DNA of 64,000 nt from Candidatus Woesebacteria bacterium (GTDB lineage Bacteria; Patescibacteriota; Microgenomatia; UBA8517). Position numbers and translations under genes: made by a program. This document shows positions 1-11,602 of this stretch, piece after piece. The stretch lies in assembly GCA_016700095.1 (NCBI GenBank), contig CP065002.1, positions 1,188,145 through 1,252,144 of the forward strand. Direction: 5' to 3'. Every line of letters starts with the position of its first letter. Position 1 is the first letter of the stretch. The notes beneath the pieces are model-generated. The model worked only from the letters and a program-made list of their open reading frames with translations, ran no database searches and was not told the DNA's origin.

Positions 1-381
1 TCCTAACGGAGTCGAGACATTTTGTCCCAAGTACAACTCAAGTATCTTAGAGCGATTTACCTTAATCCTCACCAGTATCCCTGCATTACCAGCCAATTTT
101 CTTTGTATAGGGGTTAGTAAAGAATTTCCCCTCTCATCATCCATCAGTAGAAAATTAGGAATTGTCTCGTTAAATATCCTTGATAAAGTCCGTGTACTCA
201 TGTTGTTTTCCTCTGCCCAATGGTCACGATTATGTAACTCTGTCCATTCTCGTTGCCATCCTACGGAATCACGCATTACCGAGCAAAATAATTTCCAAGC
301 CAAGGGACTAAGGACTTTTTTAACAAAGTCGAGGTAGAGATGGTCAAACTGTGTATAGCCTTTATTCTTCGTAGTCTCCAT
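1..381 (-). CDS. Partial CDS running off the window start; MGE-associated hypothetical protein with an HTH-like segment (METTKNKGYTQFDHLYLDFVKKVLSPLAWKLF...MSTRTLSRIFNETIP...)
   Basis: Manual minus-strand translation from ATG at 379-381 to position 1 has no stop. It is absent from the ORF track because its stop lies outside the window. The start overlaps the end of the SpoVG-like gene. Function guessed only from an HTH-like motif. Confidence 0.35.
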   Translation of the reverse strand, partial: METTKNKGYTQFDHLYLDFVKKVLSPLAWKLFCSVMRDSVGWQREWTELHNRDHWAEENNMSTRTLSRIFNETIPNFLLMDDERGNSLLTPIQRKLAGNAGILVRIKVNRSKILELYLGQNVSTPLG

Positions 382-682
382 AGTTAATCCTTTCCTTAAT
401 CAGCTCCTCAAACTTTTCCGTTATAGATTTCTGGATAGCGTCACCAACTTCCCTGCTTATAGGGTAGAAGTAGTAATAATTCTGTCCATTCGATAACTTT
501 TTCGTGGGGTAGGAAAGCCTATACGAACCATCAGCTTTACTAACGATTCCAATGTTGTCCAACCTCAACATCCTATTGATAATGCAACTGGCAAATGCCA
601 CAAGTCCATCACTTGACCGAATGGGAATTATCCGAACCTCGCTTACCTGAATATCACCGCTGGTGCTGCCTGGGCTGCCCAT
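362..682 (-). CDS. spoVG: SpoVG-family protein (phage-associated homologue)
   Basis: Aligns to B. subtilis SpoVG from memory (V.DVR...AFAS...D.F...I.V...DG.......P.KK..NG.......PI....R..I). Strong RBS AAAGGAGG 4 nt upstream of the ATG. Confidence 0.65.
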   Translation of the reverse strand: MGSPGSTSGDIQVSEVRIIPIRSSDGLVAFASCIINRMLRLDNIGIVSKADGSYRLSYPTKKLSNGQNYYYFYPISREVGDAIQKSITEKFEELIKERINYGDYEE

Positions 683-894
683 GCTACCTCCTTTCTCCAG
701 TCATAAGGTGTAATCCTGACCTCATCCTTTCGCTTGGGTAAGACTACCGCTTTAACTGGCTTTGGTTGTGTAACAGGAGTAGAGAGTGAAGATTCCTCGT
801 ACAAGAACTGAAGGGATGGAACAAACCGAGTTATAAAAGAAGGGAAGTTATCCGTTGTGAGATTGTCTGTGAGTTTAATCTTTTCGTGATTCAT
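643..894 (-). CDS. Hypothetical protein (83 aa) in the island
   Basis: ORF co-directional with the island genes. Overlaps the spoVG start by 40 nt. No recognisable motif. Confidence 0.3.
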   Translation of the reverse strand: MNHEKIKLTDNLTTDNFPSFITRFVPSLQFLYEESSLSTPVTQPKPVKAVVLPKRKDEVRITPYDWRKEVAWAAQAAPAVIFR

Positions 895-1013
895 AGTCCG
901 TTAAATAAAAAGCCACCTCTTTTGCTGAACCTGGATAGGTTCTGCTAAATAAGGTGGTCGAACTATGACCTCCGATTAGATTAATAATAATGTATTACTT
1001 CTGCAACTCAAAG

Positions 1014-1433
1014 TCAACTGGCTCTCCAGGTGTCTCCTCTCATTTTATTGAGCATCTCATCAATTTCCCCTGGGGTCTTTGGTACACTCGGCATTTCAAC
1101 TTTGCCTCTTGGTGCTTCCCAGCCTGACCATTTTCCTACAAGGTTAAGCCCTGCAACTGACACAGCATCGCTTTCCTTGGGCTGCATGATAATTTCCCTT
1201 GCCCTTTTGATTGCTACTTGTTGAGTAATGCCGCTATCCTGCATCAGCCCATCTAACGCTTCCCTTATCTTTGGCTTCCTCATGTTCTTTTTAGCTATAT
1301 CCTTTGGGTCTTTGCAATCTGGGTAAGCTATTCTTGCTGCCTTTGTTGGAGAGAGTAGTTCGATTACTTTCTGCACAAAGACTTGCTGTTTTATTGTAAG
1401 AGTGTCTGATTTTGTCCTCATAGTCGTGAGCAA
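1014..1433 (-). CDS. terS: Phage terminase small subunit-like protein (Terminase_2/HTH type)
   Basis: N-terminal LTIKQQVFVQKVIELLSPTKAARIAYP..KNMRKPKIREAL matches the TerS pattern (LTxKQxxFxxxYxxxxNxTxAAxxAGYS...NLxKPxIxxxI). No large terminase is adjacent. Confidence 0.5.
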   Translation of the reverse strand: MLTTMRTKSDTLTIKQQVFVQKVIELLSPTKAARIAYPDCKDPKDIAKKNMRKPKIREALDGLMQDSGITQQVAIKRAREIIMQPKESDAVSVAGLNLVGKWSGWEAPRGKVEMPSVPKTPGEIDEMLNKMRGDTWRAS

Positions 1434-1512
1434 AAGACAACTATTTTCACCAAAACACGCTCAATTCACATACGGAGGGGTGACAAAGGGGGACAATCTA
1501 AGTATAACAGAA

Positions 1513-1779
1513 TTACAATAGATTCAACTTGCCCATCACAAAATCTATAACAGAAAACCCAGTAACAGTGTAAATCGCAAGGTCAATTAATCCATAGAAT
1601 ACTAAAAACGCAATAACGCCAGAGACAATGTAAACGCCACTCCAGAACAACTTAATGAGGAAAAGAAAAGGTTCATCAGTTGCCTTTGGCTTGAAATCAT
1701 TCTCAGTTGCCCACTCCAGATTGTATGGGTCGTCATTGAAAGGGTCTATGTAAACTTCAACTTCTTTTTTTACCTTCAT
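1513..1779 (-). CDS. Small membrane protein (two C-terminal TM helices; holin-like by topology only)
   Basis: 88 aa with a hydrophilic N-terminus and hydrophobic segments FWSGVYIVSGVIAFLVFYGLIDLAIYTVTGF. Confidence 0.35.
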   Translation of the reverse strand: MKVKKEVEVYIDPFNDDPYNLEWATENDFKPKATDEPFLFLIKLFWSGVYIVSGVIAFLVFYGLIDLAIYTVTGFSVIDFVMGKLNLL

Positions 1780-1864
1780 AAATAAAATGGCAGCTTAAGA
1801 CCTCGTGTAGTCCCTTGGCTGCCTCAGTGTGCTGTCAGCAAATATAGCGTGATATTACCATGAT

Positions 1865-2164
1865 GTGACTGTGAGACGCAAGACTCCTGGTCACATACTT
1901 AGTAAATTATGGTTTATGGGAAAGGTTAATAAAAGTTTTCCAATCAACGAAAAAGAGAAAGAGGAGGTGCAGCAGAAGTTTGGCAAGAGGCTTGCTGAAC
2001 TACGGAGTGGTAAATTTACTCAAGAAAAATTCGCATTCGAGGTGGGAGTTGACAGAACCTATATCAGCTACATCGAAAGGGGAGAAAAGAATCCATCTCT
2101 TTATGTTTTGGCAAGAATGGCAAAAGCCCTTAAAATTAGTTTGTCGGAGTTAGTAAGCTTTTAA
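1865..2164 (+). CDS. XRE-family helix-turn-helix transcriptional regulator (cI/Cro- or C-protein-like)
   Basis: Canonical HTH_3 signature FGKRLAELRSGKFTQEKFAFEVGVDRTYISYIERGEKNPSLYVLARMAKALKISLSEL. The true start may be the internal Met (MGKVNK...). Its 3' end overlaps vsr convergently by about 29 nt. Confidence 0.75.
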   Translation: MTVRRKTPGHILSKLWFMGKVNKSFPINEKEKEEVQQKFGKRLAELRSGKFTQEKFAFEVGVDRTYISYIERGEKNPSLYVLARMAKALKISLSELVSF

Positions 2165-2552
2165 TTTCACTTAATTTTTTCTGAAGCTGGATTTTGTCGC
2201 TCAATTCGTGTTCCCAAAGCCTAATCACAGTCCAACCTATTTCATTATAGTGACTATTTACTAAGTTGTCTCGTTTTTTATTTCTGCTTATTTTCTCTCT
2301 CCAATAATCCTGGTTGCTGTTCGGCATTCTTAGATGTGAATCGCAACCATGCCAGAAACATGAATCTATAAATAAAACCACTTTTTTACTTTTAAAGACA
2401 AGGTCAGGCTTTCCAAAATAACGAGGGTTATTTTTTCTGTATCTTATACCTTCTGTCCAAAGTTTTTTCCTAAACTCAATCTCAAGCTTAGTCTCCTTGC
2501 TTTTTACCTTGCGCATTATTTCACTGCGTTTTGCTTTGGACACTTTATCCAT
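2136..2552 (-). CDS. vsr: Very-short-patch repair endonuclease Vsr
   Basis: Vsr core FIDSCFWHGC (cf. VDGCFWHGH). About 140 aa. Sits directly downstream of a C5-MTase/REase pair, as is typical for 5mC R-M systems. Confidence 0.8.
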   Translation of the reverse strand: MDKVSKAKRSEIMRKVKSKETKLEIEFRKKLWTEGIRYRKNNPRYFGKPDLVFKSKKVVLFIDSCFWHGCDSHLRMPNSNQDYWREKISRNKKRDNLVNSHYNEIGWTVIRLWEHELSDKIQLQKKLSEIKSLLTPTN

Positions 2553-2558
2553 ATTAGA

Positions 2559-3329
2559 TTAACGGACTATGGCACAGGGGTTTATCTTGAACTGAAGCAT
2601 TTTAGCTGATTCTCTACCGCCATCTCCGCCTTTTCTTTGCATTGTAATTTTTCCAATTTTTAAACTTCCCTGATTCGTAATATACACTTTGCCGCCCCCA
2701 TAAAAATTCATAACTACAGATATAGGAAGTAATGTCCACACACTTACATCTTTCTGGTATATTAGCATCCACGCTGCAGCAAGCTTGTCTCTTCCTTTTA
2801 AGATGTCGCTTACAATCATTATTTTGTTTTCTTCAAAGAACTTAACTAATTCATTTTGAGAATTAGAATCTAATTCATCTAAAAACATTCTTCTACCATC
2901 CCTTGTGTTTGTCCTGCTGGGTGAAAACTCTCCAGTAAAAAGTTTTAGTGAATGAGCGATATTGTCTGGAATTGCCCATAGTTCGATATATTTATCAACC
3001 CATCTTTTATCAACTTGATTAAAACCAGTGGGGTTGCTCACCAATTTTATGGATAAATTCTCTGCAGAGATGGCGTTTTTAAGATAAATTTTTATTTTTA
3101 CCTGCACATCTGTTTTATACGAACCTGTAATTTTCACTGCTTCTACTTTTTCAATCTCCTCGAGATTGTAGTTCATAACAGTTAGCCAGTCTTGAGCATC
3201 AAGGTCTGACTTCCAATTATTAAATTTTTCTACCACATCATTTTCATTTTTAAATCCGCCTTTTGCAGTAGCAGAACCTCGTTTTACCAATTCGTCTATA
3301 TTGTTTGTTGTATTGCTGTAATTAGACAT
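2559..3329 (-). CDS. Type II restriction endonuclease, MspI/HpaII-like family (CCGG-type inferred)
   Basis: 256 aa. Segments TGSYKTDVQVKI and ...SAKMLQFKI resemble MspI GGSPKTDATIRF and ...KAKKMQFKG (recalled from memory). Overlaps the upstream MTase stop by 8 nt, suggesting translational coupling. Confidence 0.5.
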   Translation of the reverse strand: MSNYSNTTNNIDELVKRGSATAKGGFKNENDVVEKFNNWKSDLDAQDWLTVMNYNLEEIEKVEAVKITGSYKTDVQVKIKIYLKNAISAENLSIKLVSNPTGFNQVDKRWVDKYIELWAIPDNIAHSLKLFTGEFSPSRTNTRDGRRMFLDELDSNSQNELVKFFEENKIMIVSDILKGRDKLAAAWMLIYQKDVSVWTLLPISVVMNFYGGGKVYITNQGSLKIGKITMQRKGGDGGRESAKMLQFKINPCAIVR

Positions 3330-4383
3330 TATAAGTTTCCAGATTTAGTTGCTCTATCTTACCCCTTTTTTTAGTAAGGGACTTCTCGTTCTCCGTTAAG
3401 GGATATGTCTCTAAAACTTTTTTAAATATTGCAATCAATACTGGGACAGAGACACTATCGCCAAATTGTTTATAAGCGATGTTTCGTTTTACTGGAATAA
3501 CGAAACTCTCAGGATAACCTTGTAGCCTTGCGCACTCTCTGGGAGTTAGTTTCCGCACTTTGTTATTTATAAAATAAGCCCCTGTCTTGCTGGCTGCACC
3601 GCCACCATAAGCCGATAGGGTTATTCCTGAAGCATATATTGAATATATTCTTTCCCCTTGACCTCCTTTGTTTATTTTACCTATTTGCAAAGGTCTTCTT
3701 GGGTCATTCACAGATTTTTCGTCACCATATATTTCCATATCGCTTCGGTTAATGTAACAGTCTTTATCAACATTGATTTCAGGCTCTATAATGTCTTTTA
3801 CAACCTTTAGTGAATTTGAATTATTGGGAAAGGTAAACTCGGTTACATTCAAATCCTTCCTAAATGCAACCATATACACTCTTTCTCTTGCTTGTGGAAC
3901 TCCATAATCACTTGAACGAAGCACTTTAATGAAAGTATTATATCCAACCTCATTAAGAGTATTCTCAATTACTTTAATCGTATTACCATTATCATGTCTT
4001 AATAAATTCTTTACATTTTCTAAGAATAATATTTTAGGTTGGTGGTATTTAGCAATTCGAGCAATATCTCTGAACAGAGTACCTCTTGTATCATCAAAAC
4101 CAAGTCTTTTTCCTGAAATGCTAAATGCTTGACAAGGAAAACCAGCACATAACACATCATGTCTTGGAATATTTTTTTCCTTAATCTTTGTTATATCTCC
4201 CTGAGGTGTATCACCAAAATTTGCAGAATATGTTGACTGTGAATTTTTATCCCATTCAGAACTGAAAATGCACATTCCTCCAAGTTCCTCCAATGCCATT
4301 CTGAACCCACCAATACCAGCAAATAGGTCTATAAAAGTAAATTTATTGCTTTTTCCGTTAATAGTTTTGCTTGTTTTGCTCAT
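3322..4383 (-). CDS. DNA (cytosine-5)-methyltransferase, Dcm-type
   Basis: Motif I FIDLFAGIGGF, motif IV GFPCQAFS, motif VI ENV, and a C-terminal LTPRECARLQGYPESF. Non-permuted C5-MTase architecture. Confidence 0.9.
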   Translation of the reverse strand: MSKTSKTINGKSNKFTFIDLFAGIGGFRMALEELGGMCIFSSEWDKNSQSTYSANFGDTPQGDITKIKEKNIPRHDVLCAGFPCQAFSISGKRLGFDDTRGTLFRDIARIAKYHQPKILFLENVKNLLRHDNGNTIKVIENTLNEVGYNTFIKVLRSSDYGVPQARERVYMVAFRKDLNVTEFTFPNNSNSLKVVKDIIEPEINVDKDCYINRSDMEIYGDEKSVNDPRRPLQIGKINKGGQGERIYSIYASGITLSAYGGGAASKTGAYFINNKVRKLTPRECARLQGYPESFVIPVKRNIAYKQFGDSVSVPVLIAIFKKVLETYPLTENEKSLTKKRGKIEQLNLETYNV

Positions 4384-4429
4384 AAATTTTAATGATTATT
4401 GCTTTATAGTATATCAGTTTTTCTGCTAA

Positions 4430-4720
4430 ATGCGCTATAATAAATTTATGGGAATAAGACAAGGTGTAACTCGATATACGAGTGGGTACATTCGAAAGTT
4501 AACTAATAGCGAAAAGGCAAGAGGCTATATGTTTATCTCAAACGATAGGTTAATTAAAGGTAATAAAGATATAAAAATCATTATTGGTAATAAAAATTTC
4601 TCTGGGGAAAATATAGACAATTCAGGTAGAATAGTTGCTGGTAAAGATGTAATTCAAGATATAGGAAATAAAGATATAACTTTTAAACTAAGCGGTAACA
4701 GATTAACGATAACCTTCTAA
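4430..4720 (+). CDS. Hypothetical Gly/Asn/Lys-rich protein (96 aa); may be junction filler
   Basis: ORF only. No RBS and no recognisable domain. Lies between the island MTase and the truncated comM. Confidence 0.2.
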   Translation: MRYNKFMGIRQGVTRYTSGYIRKLTNSEKARGYMFISNDRLIKGNKDIKIIIGNKNFSGENIDNSGRIVAGKDVIQDIGNKDITFKLSGNRLTITF

Positions 4721-4742
4721 AATTCTTGAACAATGTACATCC

Positions 4743-5807
4743 CTAAGGACAAGGATTGCTGGCAGCAACCAACAAAAATTTCGCGGGGTATGAGACGGTT
4801 GCTTTGGCTCTGGATATTGTAACTACACCATCCTCCATTGGTTGGCGCAAACTTTCGAGAACGTTTCTGGGAAATTCGGGAAATTCATCTAGAAAAAGTA
4901 CACCTCGATGTGCCAGCGAAACCTCGCCTGGAGTTGGATTGCTCCCTCCGCCAATTAAACCAATTCGACTCGTGGTGTGATGTGGACTACGAAACGGCCT
5001 TGAAATCATAAGCGATTGACCGGATGGTAAATTGCCGGTTATGGAATATATCTTGGTAACCGAAAGTGCTTCATCTTCGTTTAACAAAGGTAGTATCCCC
5101 GGCAATGCACGCGCTAGCATGGTTTTCCCCGATCCGGGAGATCCGCGCATAAAAATATTGTGTCCACCCGCCGCAGCGATTTCCATTGCCCTTTTGGCTT
5201 GTTCTTGTCCAATAATTTCACTAAAGTCAAATTCCGCACTAGCGGTTTTGAGTAATTTACTAAACGATGTTTTTACGACTGGAATAATTGAAATTGTTCC
5301 GGAAAAATATCGAACTAATTCAAGGAGATTCTCAACCGGATAAACATCAATGCCGGTTACAACACTTGCCTCTTTTGCGTTCACGCTCGGTACAAATATT
5401 TTCTTAATATCCCTACTTTGACTTGCAAGATTGGCAATTGGCAACAATCCGTTTGTGTGTCTTAAACCTCCGTCAAGAGACAATTCCCCCATAAACATAC
5501 AATCGTTAACAGTTGGCGCTATTTGTCCCGAAGCAAGCAGAATCCCTAGAGCAATCGGCAAATCGTATGCCGGTCCGTTTTTGGGTAAATCGGCAGGCGC
5601 TAAATTTACCGTTATCCGCGACATGGGAAAATCAGCACCGGTGTTTTTTATGGCTGATCTTACACGCTCTTTACTTTCTTCCACCGCCTTATCGGGTAAA
5701 CCAACAATAGTGAAGCTGGGCAAACCTTCTTGGGGAATATCGACTTCTACTTCAATTCTTTTAGCATCCAAACCGAGAACGGCACCAGAGGTAACTTTAG
5801 CAAGCAT
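4743..5807 (-). CDS. comM: ComM/YifB Mg-chelatase-like AAA+ ATPase, C-terminally truncated (ends at the NPCP motif; about 150 aa missing)
   Basis: N-terminal Lon-like domain plus Walker A GSPGSGKT, Walker [11 protein letters not shown], then ...[10 protein letters not shown] followed by stop TAG at 4743-4745. Full-length ComM continues NPCPCG... to about 500 aa. Confidence 0.8.
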
Positions 5808-5873
5808 AATTAAATATACAACGAACCAACAATTTTTGCGACGACTTAGGGAGAAGTCTTGGGAACTGCTTTG

Positions 5874-6335
5874 TCACTTACTTCTCTCGAAATTAATTGG
5901 CGTCGTGGGAAGGGGGGTAACAATTATATTTTTATTAATTTCAGTGTCGGAAGGAGTCGTGCTGTGCACCTGAACACTAGTCTTGTTATTTTTGTTTTTG
6001 AAATATAAAACAAAGGCTTCTGACGGAGAGATTTTTTCAATGTTTTCAAAATTTATTTTTTCAATGCGAGAAACCACCTTTCCGTCTTTGAAAGCCACAA
6101 TCCTTTTGATGGGACTTTTACGTTCAAATACCAATGAAAAAATACTAAGTAAAATCATCAAAGGAATCACAGAAATTATCAGAAACAACCACCAGTACGA
6201 CTTGGTACTTTCTTTGAATAACATTTTAAAAGTCTTGAAGTTCAAACTAACAAAAACAGTCGTAAAAAATATTAACCCAACATAAGCTGCCAGTCTAATT
6301 AATGTGACAACGTTTGCGTTAAAATTTACATCCAT
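5874..6335 (-). CDS. Membrane protein (two N-terminal TM helices), co-transcribed with the upstream receiver gene
   Basis: 153 aa. Start abuts the response-regulator stop (6335/6336). Hydrophobic N-terminal segments. Confidence 0.4.
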   Translation of the reverse strand: MDVNFNANVVTLIRLAAYVGLIFFTTVFVSLNFKTFKMLFKESTKSYWWLFLIISVIPLMILLSIFSLVFERKSPIKRIVAFKDGKVVSRIEKINFENIEKISPSEAFVLYFKNKNNKTSVQVHSTTPSDTEINKNIIVTPLPTTPINFERSK

Positions 6336-10075: not shown

Positions 10076-11602
10076 CTATGTTTTTTTGATGAATTTTGAT
10101 TTATGGAGCAACAAATCACCTTTAAATACACTTTTCTGAAATTCACATATCACAACTTTGGGCTTACACAGTTTACGATCCATATTGTATGCCCCTTCAT
10201 AATCTGGATTATTCTTTAGTAGTTGATCTAAGATCAAGTTAGTATATCTAATTTGTTCTTCTTGTTTTTTCAGAATGTTGTAGGATATATTCTCTTTGAG
10301 CTCTAGATAAATTCGCAACTCTTGATGTTGATTGATGTTATGCTCTACCGCCAGTTTAAAACTGTTGATATCTTTTGCCAACGATCCAAAAAACAAACCT
10401 TCTATATCGCTTGGAAACACCAATGAGCCCCCTATGTTAACAGAAAAGTCACTCCTGCCGGATAAAAATATAAACGGCCACTTCCAAGTGGGAAGGTAAT
10501 TGGCACCTGATTTTAGCAGATTATTGAGCACGTAGCCTCTTGATTCAATTTTTGTCATTACGTCAGAATAGTTTAATACCCCACCTGTATCACCAGTGTC
10601 ATATCTGCAAATTGGCATTCTACCTGGATATGTGACTAAAATTCTTTTATCAGATGATTCAACAAATAAGAAAGGGTTTTTTTGAAAGAGTGAGGGTACA
10701 ACTACCTGGCCAAAAAGATCGATACACAAATTTCGATCCTTTTTACACAAATTTTGTATCAATGTGGTTAATGGTGTACTTGCACCTGGCCCCCCCGAAT
10801 CACTCGTACCATAGTAGTCAAGTACTACCGTTAGATTTTCCTTGTCGTATCCTAGTTTCTCCTGAATATAGTATCGCCACTCTACTGTATGAGGTTCTCC
10901 CCCTAGCATTAAACGTATATTTAGTTTTCGCAAATTTATATCACCTTTCAGTGTCAAATAATCAATCAATTTACGCGCCAATGATGGATAAGTAGCAATA
11001 ATTACCTGATCGTACTTATGGGCAATTTTCTTTAAAATATAATATATATATGTGAAATCAGCCCCTGGGTTGGCAAACGTAAAATTATATTTTTTGGCAC
11101 AATGACTTGCAGCATGAAACTGTAAATTGCCAGATGCCCATATTCCCAAATCCATTGCAGAAATATACAAAGTACTTTTTTCTGCAATTTGCCAATATAA
11201 GTTGTAATAAAAATCAACAAAATAATCATAAGCCAGGTCTGATGTTTCGACTCTTGGCCAAATTAGTGGTTCTCCAGTTGATCCAGAGCTCATATAAAAA
11301 CTGTTCATTTCTCCAATATTTCCGACTAACATGTCTTCAAAAGGATACTTGTTGAAATAATTTTGTTTATTCATAATCGGTGCAAAACATATGTTTTTAG
11401 CGCGTTTAATCGAATTTGGATTGACTTTTTGATCTTTTAAGAATTTAGGGTAAGCACGAACTTTCTTCAACATAAAATTATATATTTTAAAAGCATTATT
11501 CATGGCCCCCAAACTCCAGTATTTCTCATCCTGTTTTTGAATAAAAGACAAAGCTGCTTTATAATTTTCAAAATATTCGTAAGTGATGAAATTCTTTTTC
11601 AT
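10076..11602 (-). CDS. Adenylate-forming enzyme, phenylacetate-CoA ligase (PaaK)/coenzyme F390 synthetase/CapK-like family
   Basis: ANL-superfamily motifs MSSGSTGEP (P-loop-like A3), YPGRMPICRYDTGD (A8 Y-x-TGD), and N-terminal KYPFEDML, as in the PaaK N-domain. Start overlaps the thiF-like stop (ATGA). Confidence 0.6.
   Translation of the reverse strand: MKKNFITYEYFENYKAALSFIQKQDEKYWSLGAMNNAFKIYNFMLKKVRAYPKFLKDQKVNPNSIKRAKNICFAPIMNKQNYFNKYPFEDMLVGNIGEMNSFYMSSGSTGEPLIWPRVETSDLAYDYFVDFYYNLYWQIAEKSTLYISAMDLGIWASGNLQFHAASHCAKKYNFTFANPGADFTYIYYILKKIAHKYDQVIIATYPSLARKLIDYLTLKGDINLRKLNIRLMLGGEPHTVEWRYYIQEKLGYDKENLTVVLDYYGTSDSGGPGASTPLTTLIQNLCKKDRNLCIDLFGQVVVPSLFQKNPFLFVESSDKRILVTYPGRMPICRYDTGDTGGVLNYSDVMTKIESRGYVLNNLLKSGANYLPTWKWPFIFLSGRSDFSVNIGGSLVFPSDIEGLFFGSLAKDINSFKLAVEHNINQHQELRIYLELKENISYNILKKQEEQIRYTNLILDQLLKNNPDYEGAYNMDRKLCKPKVVICEFQKSVFKGDLLLHKSKFIKKT

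What the first reader, a model, noticed from the sequence alone, without database searches (positions are those of the whole stretch)
1..4742. Phage-satellite-like island with terS, spoVG, an XRE repressor and an MspI/HpaII-like R-M + Vsr module, ending exactly where comM is cut
Every ORF from 1 to 4383 has mobile-element flavour. A terminase small subunit stands alone, with no large terminase, portal or capsid within 4 kb. That is the hallmark of phage-inducible chromosomal islands (PICIs) and satellites that hijack a helper phage's packaging machinery. A phage-type SpoVG and an XRE repressor sit beside it. The distal accessory end carries a complete type II 5mC restriction-modification set (C5-MTase, then a translationally coupled REase, then Vsr). 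That is the position where satellites often carry anti-phage cargo. The island abuts a comM ORF that stops at the NPCP motif. comM is a known integration hotspot, for example for AbaR islands in Acinetobacter. An R-M-armed satellite in a CPR-like genome would be notable.
Basis: partly seen in the sequence, partly recalled or inferred. Interest (0 to 1): 0.75.

Follow-up and report, generated by a model that had tools for sequence, protein, structure and literature searches.

The report
Mobile island splitting comM in Woesebacteria
Window 1-4746 is the right half of a roughly 9.5-kb mobile element that a large serine recombinase inserted into the competence gene comM of a candidate-phylum (Woesebacteria) bacterium; it looks like a phage satellite and carries a GCGC restriction-modification system, making it a new family of a well-known kind of element.

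Summary
Window 1-4746 carries a small-terminase-like gene, a SpoVG-like gene, an XRE regulator and a methylase/endonuclease/Vsr set, and it ends exactly where comM is cut (NPCP*).

Corrections and additions:
- The R-M system is HhaI/HinP1I-type (GCGC), not MspI/HpaII (CCGG).
- A metagenome contig identical to the window extends the island 4.7 kb leftwards. It adds a rep-slot protein, a tyrosine recombinase, a MerR-like protein and a large serine recombinase (LSR).
- The missing comM 3' end is fused in frame to the LSR (716-aa NCBI protein, Candidatus Woesebacteria). The two comM halves rebuild a gap-free 510-aa ComM.
- The element is about 9.5 kb and has no structural genes.
- At least five relatives in Woesebacteria/Levybacteria-type genomes share the same core, the same comM codon and variable cargo. 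The two relatives with both ends measure 9.6 and 9.7 kb.
- attP is an inverted repeat centred on a CC dinucleotide, inside the LSR's own 3' end.
- The islands almost lack several 4-bp palindromes (GATC 0 observed, 24.5 expected), and this stops at the att sites.

Satellite status is plausible but unproven: no helper phage was found. LSR insertion into comM is already well documented. I rate it a new member of a known kind.

The parts
1..381 (-). First 127 codons of a 340-aa protein that runs off the left edge of the window. It occupies the slot held by replication initiators in related elements.
   Evidence: translation. (full gene, L001 4396-5418). Relatives in this slot hit phrog_270 replication initiation at E 1e-10 and Phage_rep_O at 1e-5. 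This copy has no significant hit, and hhalign against the relatives gives probability 0.7%.
362..682 (-). SpoVG-like protein (106 aa), a conserved core gene
   Evidence: Pfam SpoVG E 6.5e-10. 50-76% identical to the positional equivalents in L006, L007, L009 and L010.
643..894 (-). 83-aa conserved core ORF of unknown function
   Evidence: 37-49% identity to equivalents in L006, L009 and L010. No family hit.
903..957 (-). Conserved hairpin followed by a T-run, directly downstream of the TerS-like gene. It is terminator-like and could be a packaging or regulatory site.
   Evidence: MFE -30.1 kcal/mol for 895-1013(-), z -3.2, 0 of 200 shuffles as stable. The outer stem sequence is conserved and the inner stem changed compensatorily in L007/L010.
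1014..1433 (-). Small-terminase-like protein (135-139 aa), a conserved core gene
   Evidence: Terminase_2 33.6 bits, above the cut-off of 26.1. PHROG 51 E 6.4e-13. The family profile hits SF6 TerS 3zqp at E 3e-8 and Pam5 TerS at E 5e-5. AF2 model pLDDT 74; the top 11 Foldseek PDB hits are all small terminases, but with E of 0.24 or worse.
1513..1779 (-). 88-aa predicted membrane protein, not shared with relatives
   Evidence: No family hit.
1865..2164 (+). XRE-type HTH regulator (82 aa from the ATG at 1916). It is the only core gene on the opposite strand and is the candidate master repressor.
   Evidence: HTH_3 E 5e-14. 76-77% identical in L006 and L009, at the same position between cargo and core.
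2136..2552 (-). Vsr very-short-patch mismatch endonuclease (cargo)
   Evidence: Pfam Vsr E 1.5e-28. PADLOC Vsr 1.5e-20. Absent from relatives.
2559..3329 (-). Type II restriction endonuclease of the R.HinP1I family, predicted target GCGC (cargo)
   Evidence: Pfam R-HINP1I E 6.5e-73. PDB 1ynm E 2.9e-75 over residues 14-253. PADLOC REase_II 6e-89.
3322..4383 (-). C5-cytosine methyltransferase, M.HhaI-like, predicted target GCGC (cargo). Overlaps the REase start by 8 nt.
   Evidence: Pfam DNA_methylase E 1.2e-97. PDB M.HhaI 10mh E 4.4e-113 over residues 15-318. The next methylases score far lower.
4430..4720 (+). 96-aa ORF of unknown function in the cargo slot
   Evidence: No hit in Pfam, PHROGs or PADLOC. 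Not shared with relatives.
4729..4746 (-). Element-derived half of attL (the right arm of attP): TTA-GGGATGTACATTGTT. It supplies the TAG stop that ends the comM 5' fragment.
   Evidence: Its reverse complement AACAATGTACATCCC encodes N-N-V-H-P, the tail of the LSR. In L006 and L007 the two arms are seen as real DNA, symmetric about CC.
4747..4748 (-). Inferred crossover dinucleotide CC, the first two bases of the second Pro codon of NPCP
   Evidence: It is the centre of symmetry of the reconstructed attP and the only sequence shared by attL and attR in L006/L007. Two Logan contigs of one sample overlap by 30 nt and break exactly here.
4743..5807 (-). comM 5' fragment (354 codons, ending NPCP-TAG)
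   Evidence: Joined to the last 156 residues of P0001 it gives a 510-aa ComM that aligns without a gap to intact 508-512-aa Woesebacteria ComM at 72-79% identity.

Best explanation
Window 1-4746 is the comM-proximal half of a roughly 9.5-kb integrative mobile element. The family it belongs to is conserved in Microgenomates-type CPR bacteria (Woesebacteria, Levybacteria).

Shown:
- The element sits inside comM at the codon boundary NPCP|CG.
- At its far end is a large serine recombinase (LSR). The LSR ORF runs across the recombination site into the comM 3' part, giving a 716-aa fusion.
- The comM 5' part is stopped by a TAG that the element supplies.
- attP, reconstructed from attL and attR, is an imperfect inverted repeat symmetric about a CC dinucleotide. 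It lies in the last codons of the LSR gene.
- Precise attL x attR recombination would restore a full-length comM and a 560-aa LSR ending ...NNVHPHP*.
- The conserved core is XRE regulator, TerS-like protein, 83-aa ORF, SpoVG-like protein, rep slot, a second recombinase (tyrosine, or a small serine resolvase in some relatives), 65-aa ORF, MerR-like protein and LSR.
- Two slots hold variable cargo. Here they hold an M.HhaI-like methylase, an R.HinP1I-like endonuclease and Vsr next to attL, and a 293-aa protein before the LSR.
- There are no capsid, portal, large-terminase or lysis genes.

Inferred life cycle:
- The XRE protein keeps the element silent.
- On induction, the MerR-like protein acts as directionality factor and the LSR excises the element.
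- The rep-slot protein replicates the circle and the second recombinase resolves multimers.
- The TerS-like protein directs packaging into a helper phage's capsids, in the manner of a satellite.
- On entry into a new cell, the lack of common 4-bp restriction sites protects the DNA, and the LSR integrates it into comM.
- Splitting comM weakens transformation-driven removal of the element.
- The GCGC R-M system defends the host against phage and stabilises the island, and Vsr limits 5mC-to-T mutation at its sites.

The confidence of 0.6 is for the whole statement including the satellite lifestyle. The integration model on its own I put at about 0.95.
For: Extension and fusion:
- L001 is 100% identical to window 4776-1 and continues 4693 bp further.
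- P0001 (716 aa, NCBI, Candidatus Woesebacteria, 1.27-Mb contig) is 100% identical to the LSR of L001. It carries Resolvase, Recombinase, Mg_chelatase and Mg_chelatase_C domains.
- The junction reads ...NNVHPHP|CGYYKDP.
- The rebuilt ComM is collinear with intact orthologues.

Family:
- P0002-P0005 and L003 have the same fusion at 53-68% LSR identity.
- L006 and L007 show both comM halves flanking islands of 9605 and 9694 bp. This element is inferred to be 9504 bp.
- Core genes are shared and cargo is not.

Site: attP is symmetric about CC in L006 and L007. The window's right arm is the reverse complement of the codons for NNVHP.

TerS-like gene.

Rep slot in relatives.

R-M type.

Mobility signature:
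- GATC 0 observed vs 24.5 expected, CTAG 0 vs 20.4, ACGT 0 vs 8.1, CCGG 0 vs 4.2, CGCG 0 vs 4.7, GGCC 1 vs 13.9 in 9.4 kb. The host shows no such gaps.
- Relatives avoid partly different words.
- The depleted zone ends within 13-81 bp of the att cores, and within 13-36 bp at three of the five observed ends (window attL, L006 attL and attR).
- GCGC is not avoided in the host (84 observed, 74 expected), so the R-M system is a recent arrival.

Polymorphism hint: two contigs from one sample break at the crossover with a 30-nt (k-1) overlap, as expected if occupied and empty comM coexist.

Literature:
- Mg-chelatase/comM homologues are targeted by 12.4% of site-specific LSRs (PMC10083194).
- comM disruption by mobile elements and its effect on transformation: PMC4774983, PMC12378983, PMC11441513.
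- Marine satellites carrying tyrosine and/or serine recombinases, TerS and R-M: PMC9618062.
Against: - No helper phage is known.
- None of about 20 close TerS-like homologues examined sits near a large terminase or a structural gene. All are in similar small islands.
- IMG/VR holds no relative of the LSR or the TerS-like gene, and INPHARED holds none of the TerS-like gene.
- The Terminase_2 match covers only the N-terminal DNA-binding half, and the fold matches have weak E-values.
- This element's own rep-slot protein has no detectable homology to replication initiators. Its model was unusable, with pLDDT 41.
- No excised circle or empty site was observed directly.
- attR DNA of this very element was not retrievable. 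The left arm of its attP is therefore inferred from the protein sequence.
- The size uniformity rests on three elements.
Confidence: 0.6

Rival explanations
1. The element is integrative and plasmid-like but is not packaged by a phage. It spreads as naked DNA, in vesicles or by cell contact. The TerS-like protein is just an HTH DNA-binding regulator or replication accessory protein.
For: - TerS-like homologues are never found beside a large terminase.
- There are no relatives in viral collections.
- Only the DNA-binding half matches Terminase_2 strongly.
- A rep slot and a multimer-resolvase-type second recombinase would suit a plasmid-like circle.
- Restriction-site avoidance fits any DNA that enters cells unmodified.
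Against: - The family profile also aligns with the oligomerisation region of solved small terminases (Pam5, residues 6-107, E 5e-5). All top fold hits are small terminases.
- Three elements with different cargo have nearly the same length, 9.5-9.7 kb, which suggests a packaging size constraint.
- No relaxase or other transfer gene was found.
Confidence: 0.25
2. The element is a domesticated intervening element. Its main role is to switch comM off and on by regulated excision, like the phage in Listeria comK or the skin/SPbeta elements in Bacillus sporulation genes.
For: - Both comM halves are intact ORFs in all three complete cases, and excision would restore the gene exactly.
- All island genes but two (the XRE regulator and the 96-aa ORF) are co-oriented with comM.
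- The in-frame LSR-ComM fusion is conserved.
Against: - Most related Woesebacteria genomes carry uninterrupted comM.
- The cargo is variable and the restriction-site avoidance is strong, which indicates ongoing horizontal transfer rather than domestication.
- The element keeps replication and TerS-like genes that a pure switch would not need.
Confidence: 0.1
3. The island is an ordinary prophage or a decaying prophage remnant whose structural genes lie outside the window or have been deleted.
For: Phage-type genes are present: a TerS-like gene, an XRE regulator and integrases.
Against: - Both ends are defined, and the whole element is about 9.5 kb with no structural or lysis genes.
- Five or more diverged relatives keep the same compact gene order.
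- Where both ends are present, the relatives also keep the same size.
- All ORFs are intact.
Confidence: 0.03
4. The island is an AbaR-like, Tn7-type transposon in comM.
For: It interrupts the same target gene (PMC11441513).
Against: - No transposase genes of the TnsA/B/C type were found.
- Insertion is by a serine recombinase at a symmetric att site.
Confidence: 0.01

Closest known systems
LSR-borne mobile elements that integrate into Mg-chelatase/ComM (YifB) genes, e.g. sr1WO prophages of Wolbachia and the LSR clusters catalogued by Durrant et al. 2022
   Same: - A large serine recombinase sits at the element's end.
- The target is the coding sequence of the comM/Mg-chelatase homologue, and gene halves flank the element (PMC9203015).
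- This gene family is targeted by 12.4% of predicted site-specific LSRs (PMC10083194).
- Distant LSRs (27-34% identity) in the representative library show the same junction (xPxP|CG) and the same read-through into comM.
   Different: - sr1WO elements are full tailed prophages. This element is about 9.5 kb with no structural genes.
- The host is a CPR bacterium.
- I found no mention, in the papers read, of attP embedded in the LSR ORF or of the resulting in-frame LSR-ComM fusion.
[quoted passage not shown]
   Same: - Small size, with integrase(s), a divergent repressor and a replication module.
- A lone small terminase and no structural genes.
- Defence cargo including R-M (PMC9618062; PMC10803314).
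   Different: - No helper, induction or encapsidation has been shown.
- There are no capsid-remodelling genes.
- Classical PICIs use tyrosine integrases and att sites with direct repeats.
- The TerS-like gene has no detected close phage homologue.
Myxophage Mx8 (attP inside int; integration gives the integrase a new 3' end) and SSV-type archaeal integrases
   Same: The recombination site lies inside the recombinase's own ORF, so integration changes the protein that the gene encodes (PMC6070905; PMC7253208 abstract).
   Different: - Those are tyrosine recombinases.
- SSV integration splits the gene.
- Here a serine recombinase keeps all its domains and gains a 156-aa ComM C-terminal domain. No functional consequence is known.
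HhaI / HinP1I type II restriction-modification systems with an associated Vsr
   Same: The methylase matches M.HhaI over its full length, the endonuclease matches R.HinP1I over its full length, and a Vsr gene lies next to a C5-methylase.
   Different: Specificity is inferred from homology, not measured. The system is carried as cargo on a mobile element in a CPR host.

Membership tests
Large serine recombinase integrative element | Recombinase with an N-terminal resolvase catalytic domain (conserved Ser), a Recombinase domain and a Cys-rich/coiled-coil C-terminal region | tested here: met
   P0001: Resolvase E 4e-22 (residues 28-186) and Recombinase E 5e-24 (214-318). R33, S35 and Q39 are invariant in alignment A1. 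Cys clusters and a long helical region are visible in the sequence. The Zn_ribbon_recom Pfam model hits only the more distant relatives.
Large serine recombinase integrative element | attP is an imperfect inverted repeat about a non-palindromic central dinucleotide, and attL/attR share only that core | tested here: met
   L006: AACAATGTACACCCC-CAC-CC-TTA-GGGGTGTACATAGTT. L007 is analogous. For the window element the right arm is real DNA and the left arm is inferred from the peptide NNVHPHP.
Large serine recombinase integrative element | Catalytic activity, and directionality controlled by an RDF | not testable with these tools
   The MerR-like 89-aa protein upstream of the LSR is only a candidate RDF.
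Phage satellite (PICI/VEIME-like) | Integrase and defined att sites | tested here: met
Phage satellite (PICI/VEIME-like) | No capsid, portal, tail, large-terminase or lysis genes within the element | tested here: met
   All 15 genes of the 9.5-kb element were screened with Pfam, and most also with PHROGs or PADLOC. The same holds in L006, L007, L009 and L010.
Phage satellite (PICI/VEIME-like) | Own replication module (primase/rep) | tested here: inconclusive
   Relatives have replication initiators in this slot (phrog_270 at 1e-10, Phage_rep_O at 1e-5). The window element's 340-aa protein has no detectable homology.
Phage satellite (PICI/VEIME-like) | Packaging-hijack gene (small terminase or capsid-remodelling genes) | tested here: met
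   TerS-like gene. Support is strongest for the DNA-binding half.
Phage satellite (PICI/VEIME-like) | Helper-phage-dependent induction and encapsidation | not testable with these tools
   No helper candidate was found. Viral collections hold no relatives.
Small terminase, Terminase_2 family | N-terminal HTH DNA-binding domain plus a helical oligomerisation core | tested here: met
   - Pfam score above the cut-off for positions 1-66 of 141.
- The profile hits SF6 TerS and aligns with Pam5 TerS over residues 6-107.
- The model is all-helical; the SF6 DNA-binding domain gives TM 0.85 and rmsd 1.6 A.
- NV1 and PaP3 TerS are the next hits, but with E of 0.24 or worse.
Small terminase, Terminase_2 family | Works with a large terminase (normally the adjacent gene) | tested here: not met
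   No TerL lies within 10 kb of any family member examined. This is expected for a satellite, but it leaves the function unproven.
HhaI/HinP1I-type (GCGC) type II R-M system | C5-MTase with an M.HhaI-like target-recognition region, plus an R.HinP1I-family endonuclease | tested here: met
HhaI/HinP1I-type (GCGC) type II R-M system | Cleavage and methylation at GCGC | not testable with these tools
   Inferred from homology only. GCGC is neither avoided in the host (84 observed, 74 expected) nor absent from the island (5 observed, 9.8 expected).
   The only REase family hit is R-HINP1I. The best methylase match by far is M.HhaI.
ComM (YifB, Mg-chelatase-like AAA+ helicase) | ChlI, Mg_chelatase and Mg_chelatase_C domains in one protein of about 510 aa | tested here: met
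   The gene is split. The N-terminal 354 aa are in the window and the C-terminal 156 aa are in P0001. Joined, they align end to end with intact orthologues.
AbaR-type island (Tn7-like) in comM | Tns/Tni transposition genes and a target-site duplication | tested here: not met
   No transposase domains are present in the element.

The most novel reading that the evidence does not exclude
Because attP lies inside the last codons of the LSR gene and in the same reading frame as comM, integration swaps C-termini. The LSR gains ComM's 156-aa C-terminal domain (716 aa instead of 560 aa), and comM is truncated by the element's stop codon. Excision reverses both changes.

This could be a built-in state sensor. 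It would give the integrated and free forms different recombinase isoforms, biasing directionality or stability as reported for Mx8. It would also tie the host's competence helicase to the state of the element.

The arrangement is shared by LSRs that are only 27-34% identical. That would be expected if it were under selection rather than accidental.
Probability: 0.15. Interest if true: 0.7.

Novelty: new member of a known kind. Interest (0 to 1): 0.45.

Why it matters
- It gives a precisely delimited, apparently active mobile-element family in CPR/Patescibacteria. Mobile elements of these organisms are hardly described, and the organisms cannot be grown alone.
- If the elements are phage satellites, they would point to satellite-helper systems in these ultra-small bacteria.
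- They would also show that R-M systems, the main known defence of CPR bacteria, travel on such elements.
- The defined attB and attP sites and compact LSRs could serve as integration tools for CPR-related work.
- The split-comM architecture adds CPR bacteria to the list of lineages where mobile elements disable the competence helicase. CPR bacteria are thought to rely on DNA uptake.
- The basic mechanism, LSR insertion into comM, is already well documented, so the advance is in host range and family description rather than in principle.

Tried and rejected
- **Source contig:** look-ups of the truncated ComM and of P0001 found nothing on record. The SpoVG and response-regulator look-ups returned only two Logan contigs. 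The source genome is not among the GTDB representatives. The attR DNA of this element was therefore not obtained.
- **JGI metagenome scan** for the attP right arm (CCTTAGGGRTGTACATWGTT): three hits, all in unrelated contexts, so chance matches.
- **IMG/VR scans** with the TerS-like profile and the LSR profile: no relatives. tblastn of the TerS-like protein against INPHARED phages: no match.
- **Rep-slot protein:** the structure of the first 127 residues gave pLDDT 41 and was unusable. hhalign against the relatives gave no similarity.
- **Promoter/terminator scan of 1-6200:** counts were no higher than in shuffles.
- **Rfam scan of the whole element:** no match.
- **Repeats in the XRE/core intergenic region:** none found.
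- **Ordinary prophage and AbaR-type transposon:** rejected on gene content and defined ends.
- **Literature:** searches for CPR/Patescibacteria prophages or satellites with serine recombinases found no prior description of this family.

Full report
**1. What is in the window**

- SpoVG-like, 362-682(-).
- Terminase_2-like, 1014-1433(-): 33.6 bits against a cut-off of 26.1, but only profile positions 1-66 of 141. PHROG 51 'terminase small subunit' gives E 6.4e-13.
- XRE HTH, 1865/1916-2164(+).
- Vsr, 2136-2552(-).
- Restriction endonuclease, 2559-3329(-).
- C5-methyltransferase, 3322-4383(-), overlapping the endonuclease start by 8 nt.
- comM ORF, 4743-5807(-). It has the ChlI domain and three quarters of the Mg_chelatase domain, and stops at NPCP-TAG.

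Two things were missed:
- A gene on the minus strand starts at 381 and runs off the left edge. The window therefore begins inside the island.
- The endonuclease belongs to the R.HinP1I family (E 6.5e-73; PDB 1ynm E 3e-75 over the whole protein).
- The methylase matches M.HhaI over its whole length at E 4e-113, far above any other methylase. The system is therefore predicted to act on GCGC, not CCGG.

**2. Extending the island**

A 9469-bp Logan contig (L001, sample SRR11674018) is 100% identical to window 4776-1 and continues 4693 bp further. The extension encodes:
- the rest of the 340-aa protein;
- a 318-aa tyrosine recombinase;
- a 65-aa ORF;
- an 89-aa MerR-type protein;
- a 293-aa protein;
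- a large serine recombinase (LSR) that runs off the contig end.

A protein search with the LSR returned P0001. It is 716 aa, annotated by NCBI as a recombinase of Candidatus Woesebacteria on a 1.27-Mb contig, and 100% identical to the query. Its first 560 residues are the LSR. Its last 156 residues are the missing ComM C-terminus, with Mg_chelatase positions 156-204 and Mg_chelatase_C. The junction reads ...NNVHPHP|CGYYKDP....

Joining the window's 354-residue ComM fragment to these 156 residues gives a 510-aa protein. It aligns end to end, with no gap at the junction, to intact 508-512-aa ComM proteins of Woesebacteria at 72-79% identity.

It is fused in frame to the recombinase that cut the gene. 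The window itself contains no comM 3' part.

**3. A family, not a one-off**

Four further proteins (P0002-P0005, 54-68% identical, 722-725 aa) and a Levybacteria genome locus (L003) have the same LSR-ComM fusion. Their contigs show the whole structure: comM 5' fragment, island, then the LSR fused to the comM 3' part.

Genes shared with the window element:

| Gene | Identity to the window element |
|---|---|
| XRE | 76-77% |
| TerS-like | 29-55% |
| 83-aa ORF | 37-49% |
| SpoVG-like | 50-76% |
| Tyrosine recombinase | 83% (replaced by a small serine resolvase in L007/L010) |
| 65-aa ORF | 68-71% |
| MerR-like | 70-76% |
| LSR | 54-68% |

Genes not shared: the 96-aa ORF, the methylase, the endonuclease, Vsr, the 88-aa membrane protein, the 340-aa protein and the 293-aa protein.

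A second slot lies between the MerR-like gene and the LSR.

In relatives, the slot of the 340-aa protein holds replication initiators (phrog_270 at E 1e-10, Phage_rep_O at 1e-5). The window's version has no detectable similarity to them, and its model was unusable.

The two relatives with both ends measure 9605 and 9694 bp. The window element is inferred to be 9504 bp, with its right end observed and its left end placed from the protein junction.

**4. The recombination site**

In L006 and L007, both junctions are available as DNA.
- Joining the element sides of attR and attL gives an attP with two imperfectly inverted arms placed symmetrically around a CC dinucleotide. In L006 it reads AACAATGTACACCCC-CAC-CC-TTA-GGGGTGTACATAGTT.
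- CC is also the only sequence that attL and attR share. It forms the first two bases of the second proline codon of NPCP.
- In the window, the element side of attL is TTA-GGGATGTACATTGTT (4746-4729). Its reverse complement, AACAATGTACATCCC, encodes N-N-V-H-P, which is exactly the tail of the LSR in P0001.

The left arm of attP is therefore the last codons of the LSR gene. The TAG that ends the comM fragment also ends the LSR in the excised form (a 560-aa protein).

A serine recombinase leaves no direct repeat beyond the 2-bp core.

Two Logan contigs of one sample overlap by 30 nt (k-1) and break exactly after the CC. The comM 5' flank therefore has a second continuation in that sample, most simply an unoccupied comM. 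I could not check this against reads.

**5. An independent mark of mobility**

| Word | Observed / expected in 9.4 kb of the element |
|---|---|
| GATC | 0 / 24.5 |
| CTAG | 0 / 20.4 |
| ACGT | 0 / 8.1 |
| CCGG | 0 / 4.2 |
| CGCG | 0 / 4.7 |
| GGCC | 1 / 13.9 |

- The host part of the window has these six words at 10.9 per kb, with no gap above 489 bp. The first site appears 36 bp beyond the junction.
- L006 and L007 show the same pattern with partly different words: GATC and ACGT in L006, CATG and TTAA in L007.
- Their depleted zones end within 13-81 bp of the att cores.
- This is the pattern expected for DNA that repeatedly enters new cells unmodified and meets type II restriction.
- GCGC, the element's own target, is not avoided in the host (84 observed, 74 expected). 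The R-M system is therefore a recent arrival there.

**6. Satellite or not**

In favour:
- The element has integrases, a divergent repressor, a replication slot and a small-terminase-like gene. It has no structural or lysis gene.
- The TerS-like family profile hits solved small terminases: SF6 at E 3e-8 and Pam5 over residues 6-107 at E 5e-5.
- The AF2 model (pLDDT 74) has small terminases as its top eleven PDB matches, though with weak E-values.
- Lengths are nearly constant despite different cargo.
- Marine satellites recovered from virus particles have the same inventory, including serine and tyrosine recombinases, TerS and R-M (PMC9618062).

Against:
- About 20 close TerS-like homologues exist. 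Every context examined is another small island with an XRE regulator, a rep or primase gene and an LSR. None is a phage.
- Viral collections hold no relatives.

I therefore rate the integration model as near certain, and the satellite lifestyle as the most likely but unproven reading.

**7. Comparison with what is known**

- LSR insertion into Mg-chelatase/comM homologues is common. It accounts for 12.4% of predicted site-specific LSRs (PMC10083194) and is the site of sr1WO prophages in Wolbachia (PMC9203015).
- Disruption of comM by mobile elements, and its proposed role in blocking transformation-mediated removal of the element, is established (PMC4774983, PMC12378983, PMC11441513).
- A recombination site inside the recombinase's own ORF is known for tyrosine integrases of Mx8 and SSV-type elements.
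- A search of 1.84 billion representative proteins found further LSR-ComM fusions from LSRs only 27-34% identical, with the same junction (NPHP|CGY, KPQP|CGF, HGCP|CGW). It also found many ComM C-terminal fragments of 140-250 aa whose match starts at the same point. The read-through is therefore a general property of comM-targeting LSRs, not of this family alone.
- I found no description of this CPR family, or of the fusion, in the papers searched.

**8. Verdict**

The anatomy and the predictions were right. The R-M specificity and the repeat criterion were wrong. Satellite status is plausible but not shown.
- The element is a new member of a known kind.
- The most novel reading still open is that the C-terminal swap between LSR and ComM acts as a functional switch.

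Noticed in passing
window 1-4781; L001 31-9469; L006 2097-11702; L007 1184-10878: The islands are almost free of several 4-bp palindromes. In the window element GATC, CTAG, ACGT, CCGG and CGCG occur 0 times and GGCC once in 9.4 kb. Relatives avoid different sets of words. The depleted zones end within 13-81 bp of the att cores, and the host DNA shows no such gaps.
   Followed up: yes
window 4747-64000: The host DNA itself under-represents GGCC (36 observed, 93.5 expected). No other 4-bp palindrome is depleted to this degree. This suggests long exposure of the host lineage to a GGCC-specific R-M system.
   Followed up: no
window 4747-4776; L001 1-30 and L002 8747-8776: Two Logan contigs from sample SRR11674018 overlap by exactly 30 nt and break right after the inferred CC crossover. 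The comM 5' flank therefore has two continuations in that sample, possibly occupied and empty sites.
   Followed up: partly
window 903-957 (-); L007 about 5050-5130; L010 about 735-810; L011 about 10480-10550: A hairpin plus T-run lies just downstream of the TerS-like gene. Its outer stem sequence (CACCTTATTT...AAAGAGGTG) is conserved between elements whose TerS proteins are only 34-44% identical. The inner stem changed compensatorily. It could be more than a terminator, for example a packaging or regulatory site.
   Followed up: partly
L001 5466-6422; L006 8038-8949; L009 3618-4550; L007 6769-7572; L010 2367-3215: The slot after the rep gene holds a tyrosine recombinase in three elements and a small serine resolvase in two. 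A non-homologous replacement like this suggests a shared role such as multimer resolution of a replicating circle.
   Followed up: partly
window element (inferred), L006, L007: Island lengths are 9504, 9605 and 9694 bp despite different cargo genes. This may reflect a packaging size constraint, but only three elements are available.
   Followed up: partly
proteins P0263, P0285, P0325, P0337, P0374 and about 60 short ComM C-terminal fragments: Distant LSRs (27-34% identity, including one from a high-GC host) also read through into the comM 3' end at the same xPxP|CG position. P0325 is fused at a different, upstream point in comM. Many 140-250-aa ORFs are ComM C-terminal fragments whose match starts at this junction.
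   Followed up: partly
L011-L015: TerS-like homologues occur in other small CPR islands integrated at other sites by other LSRs. The module is XRE, a ~99-aa ORF, the TerS-like gene, a rep or PriCT primase gene, and the LSR. One island has an HTH_17 excisionase-like gene directly before its LSR.
   Followed up: partly
L006 245-2102: In one relative, dprA (DNA_processg_A) lies directly upstream of the interrupted comM. The element therefore sits inside a competence gene pair.
   Followed up: no
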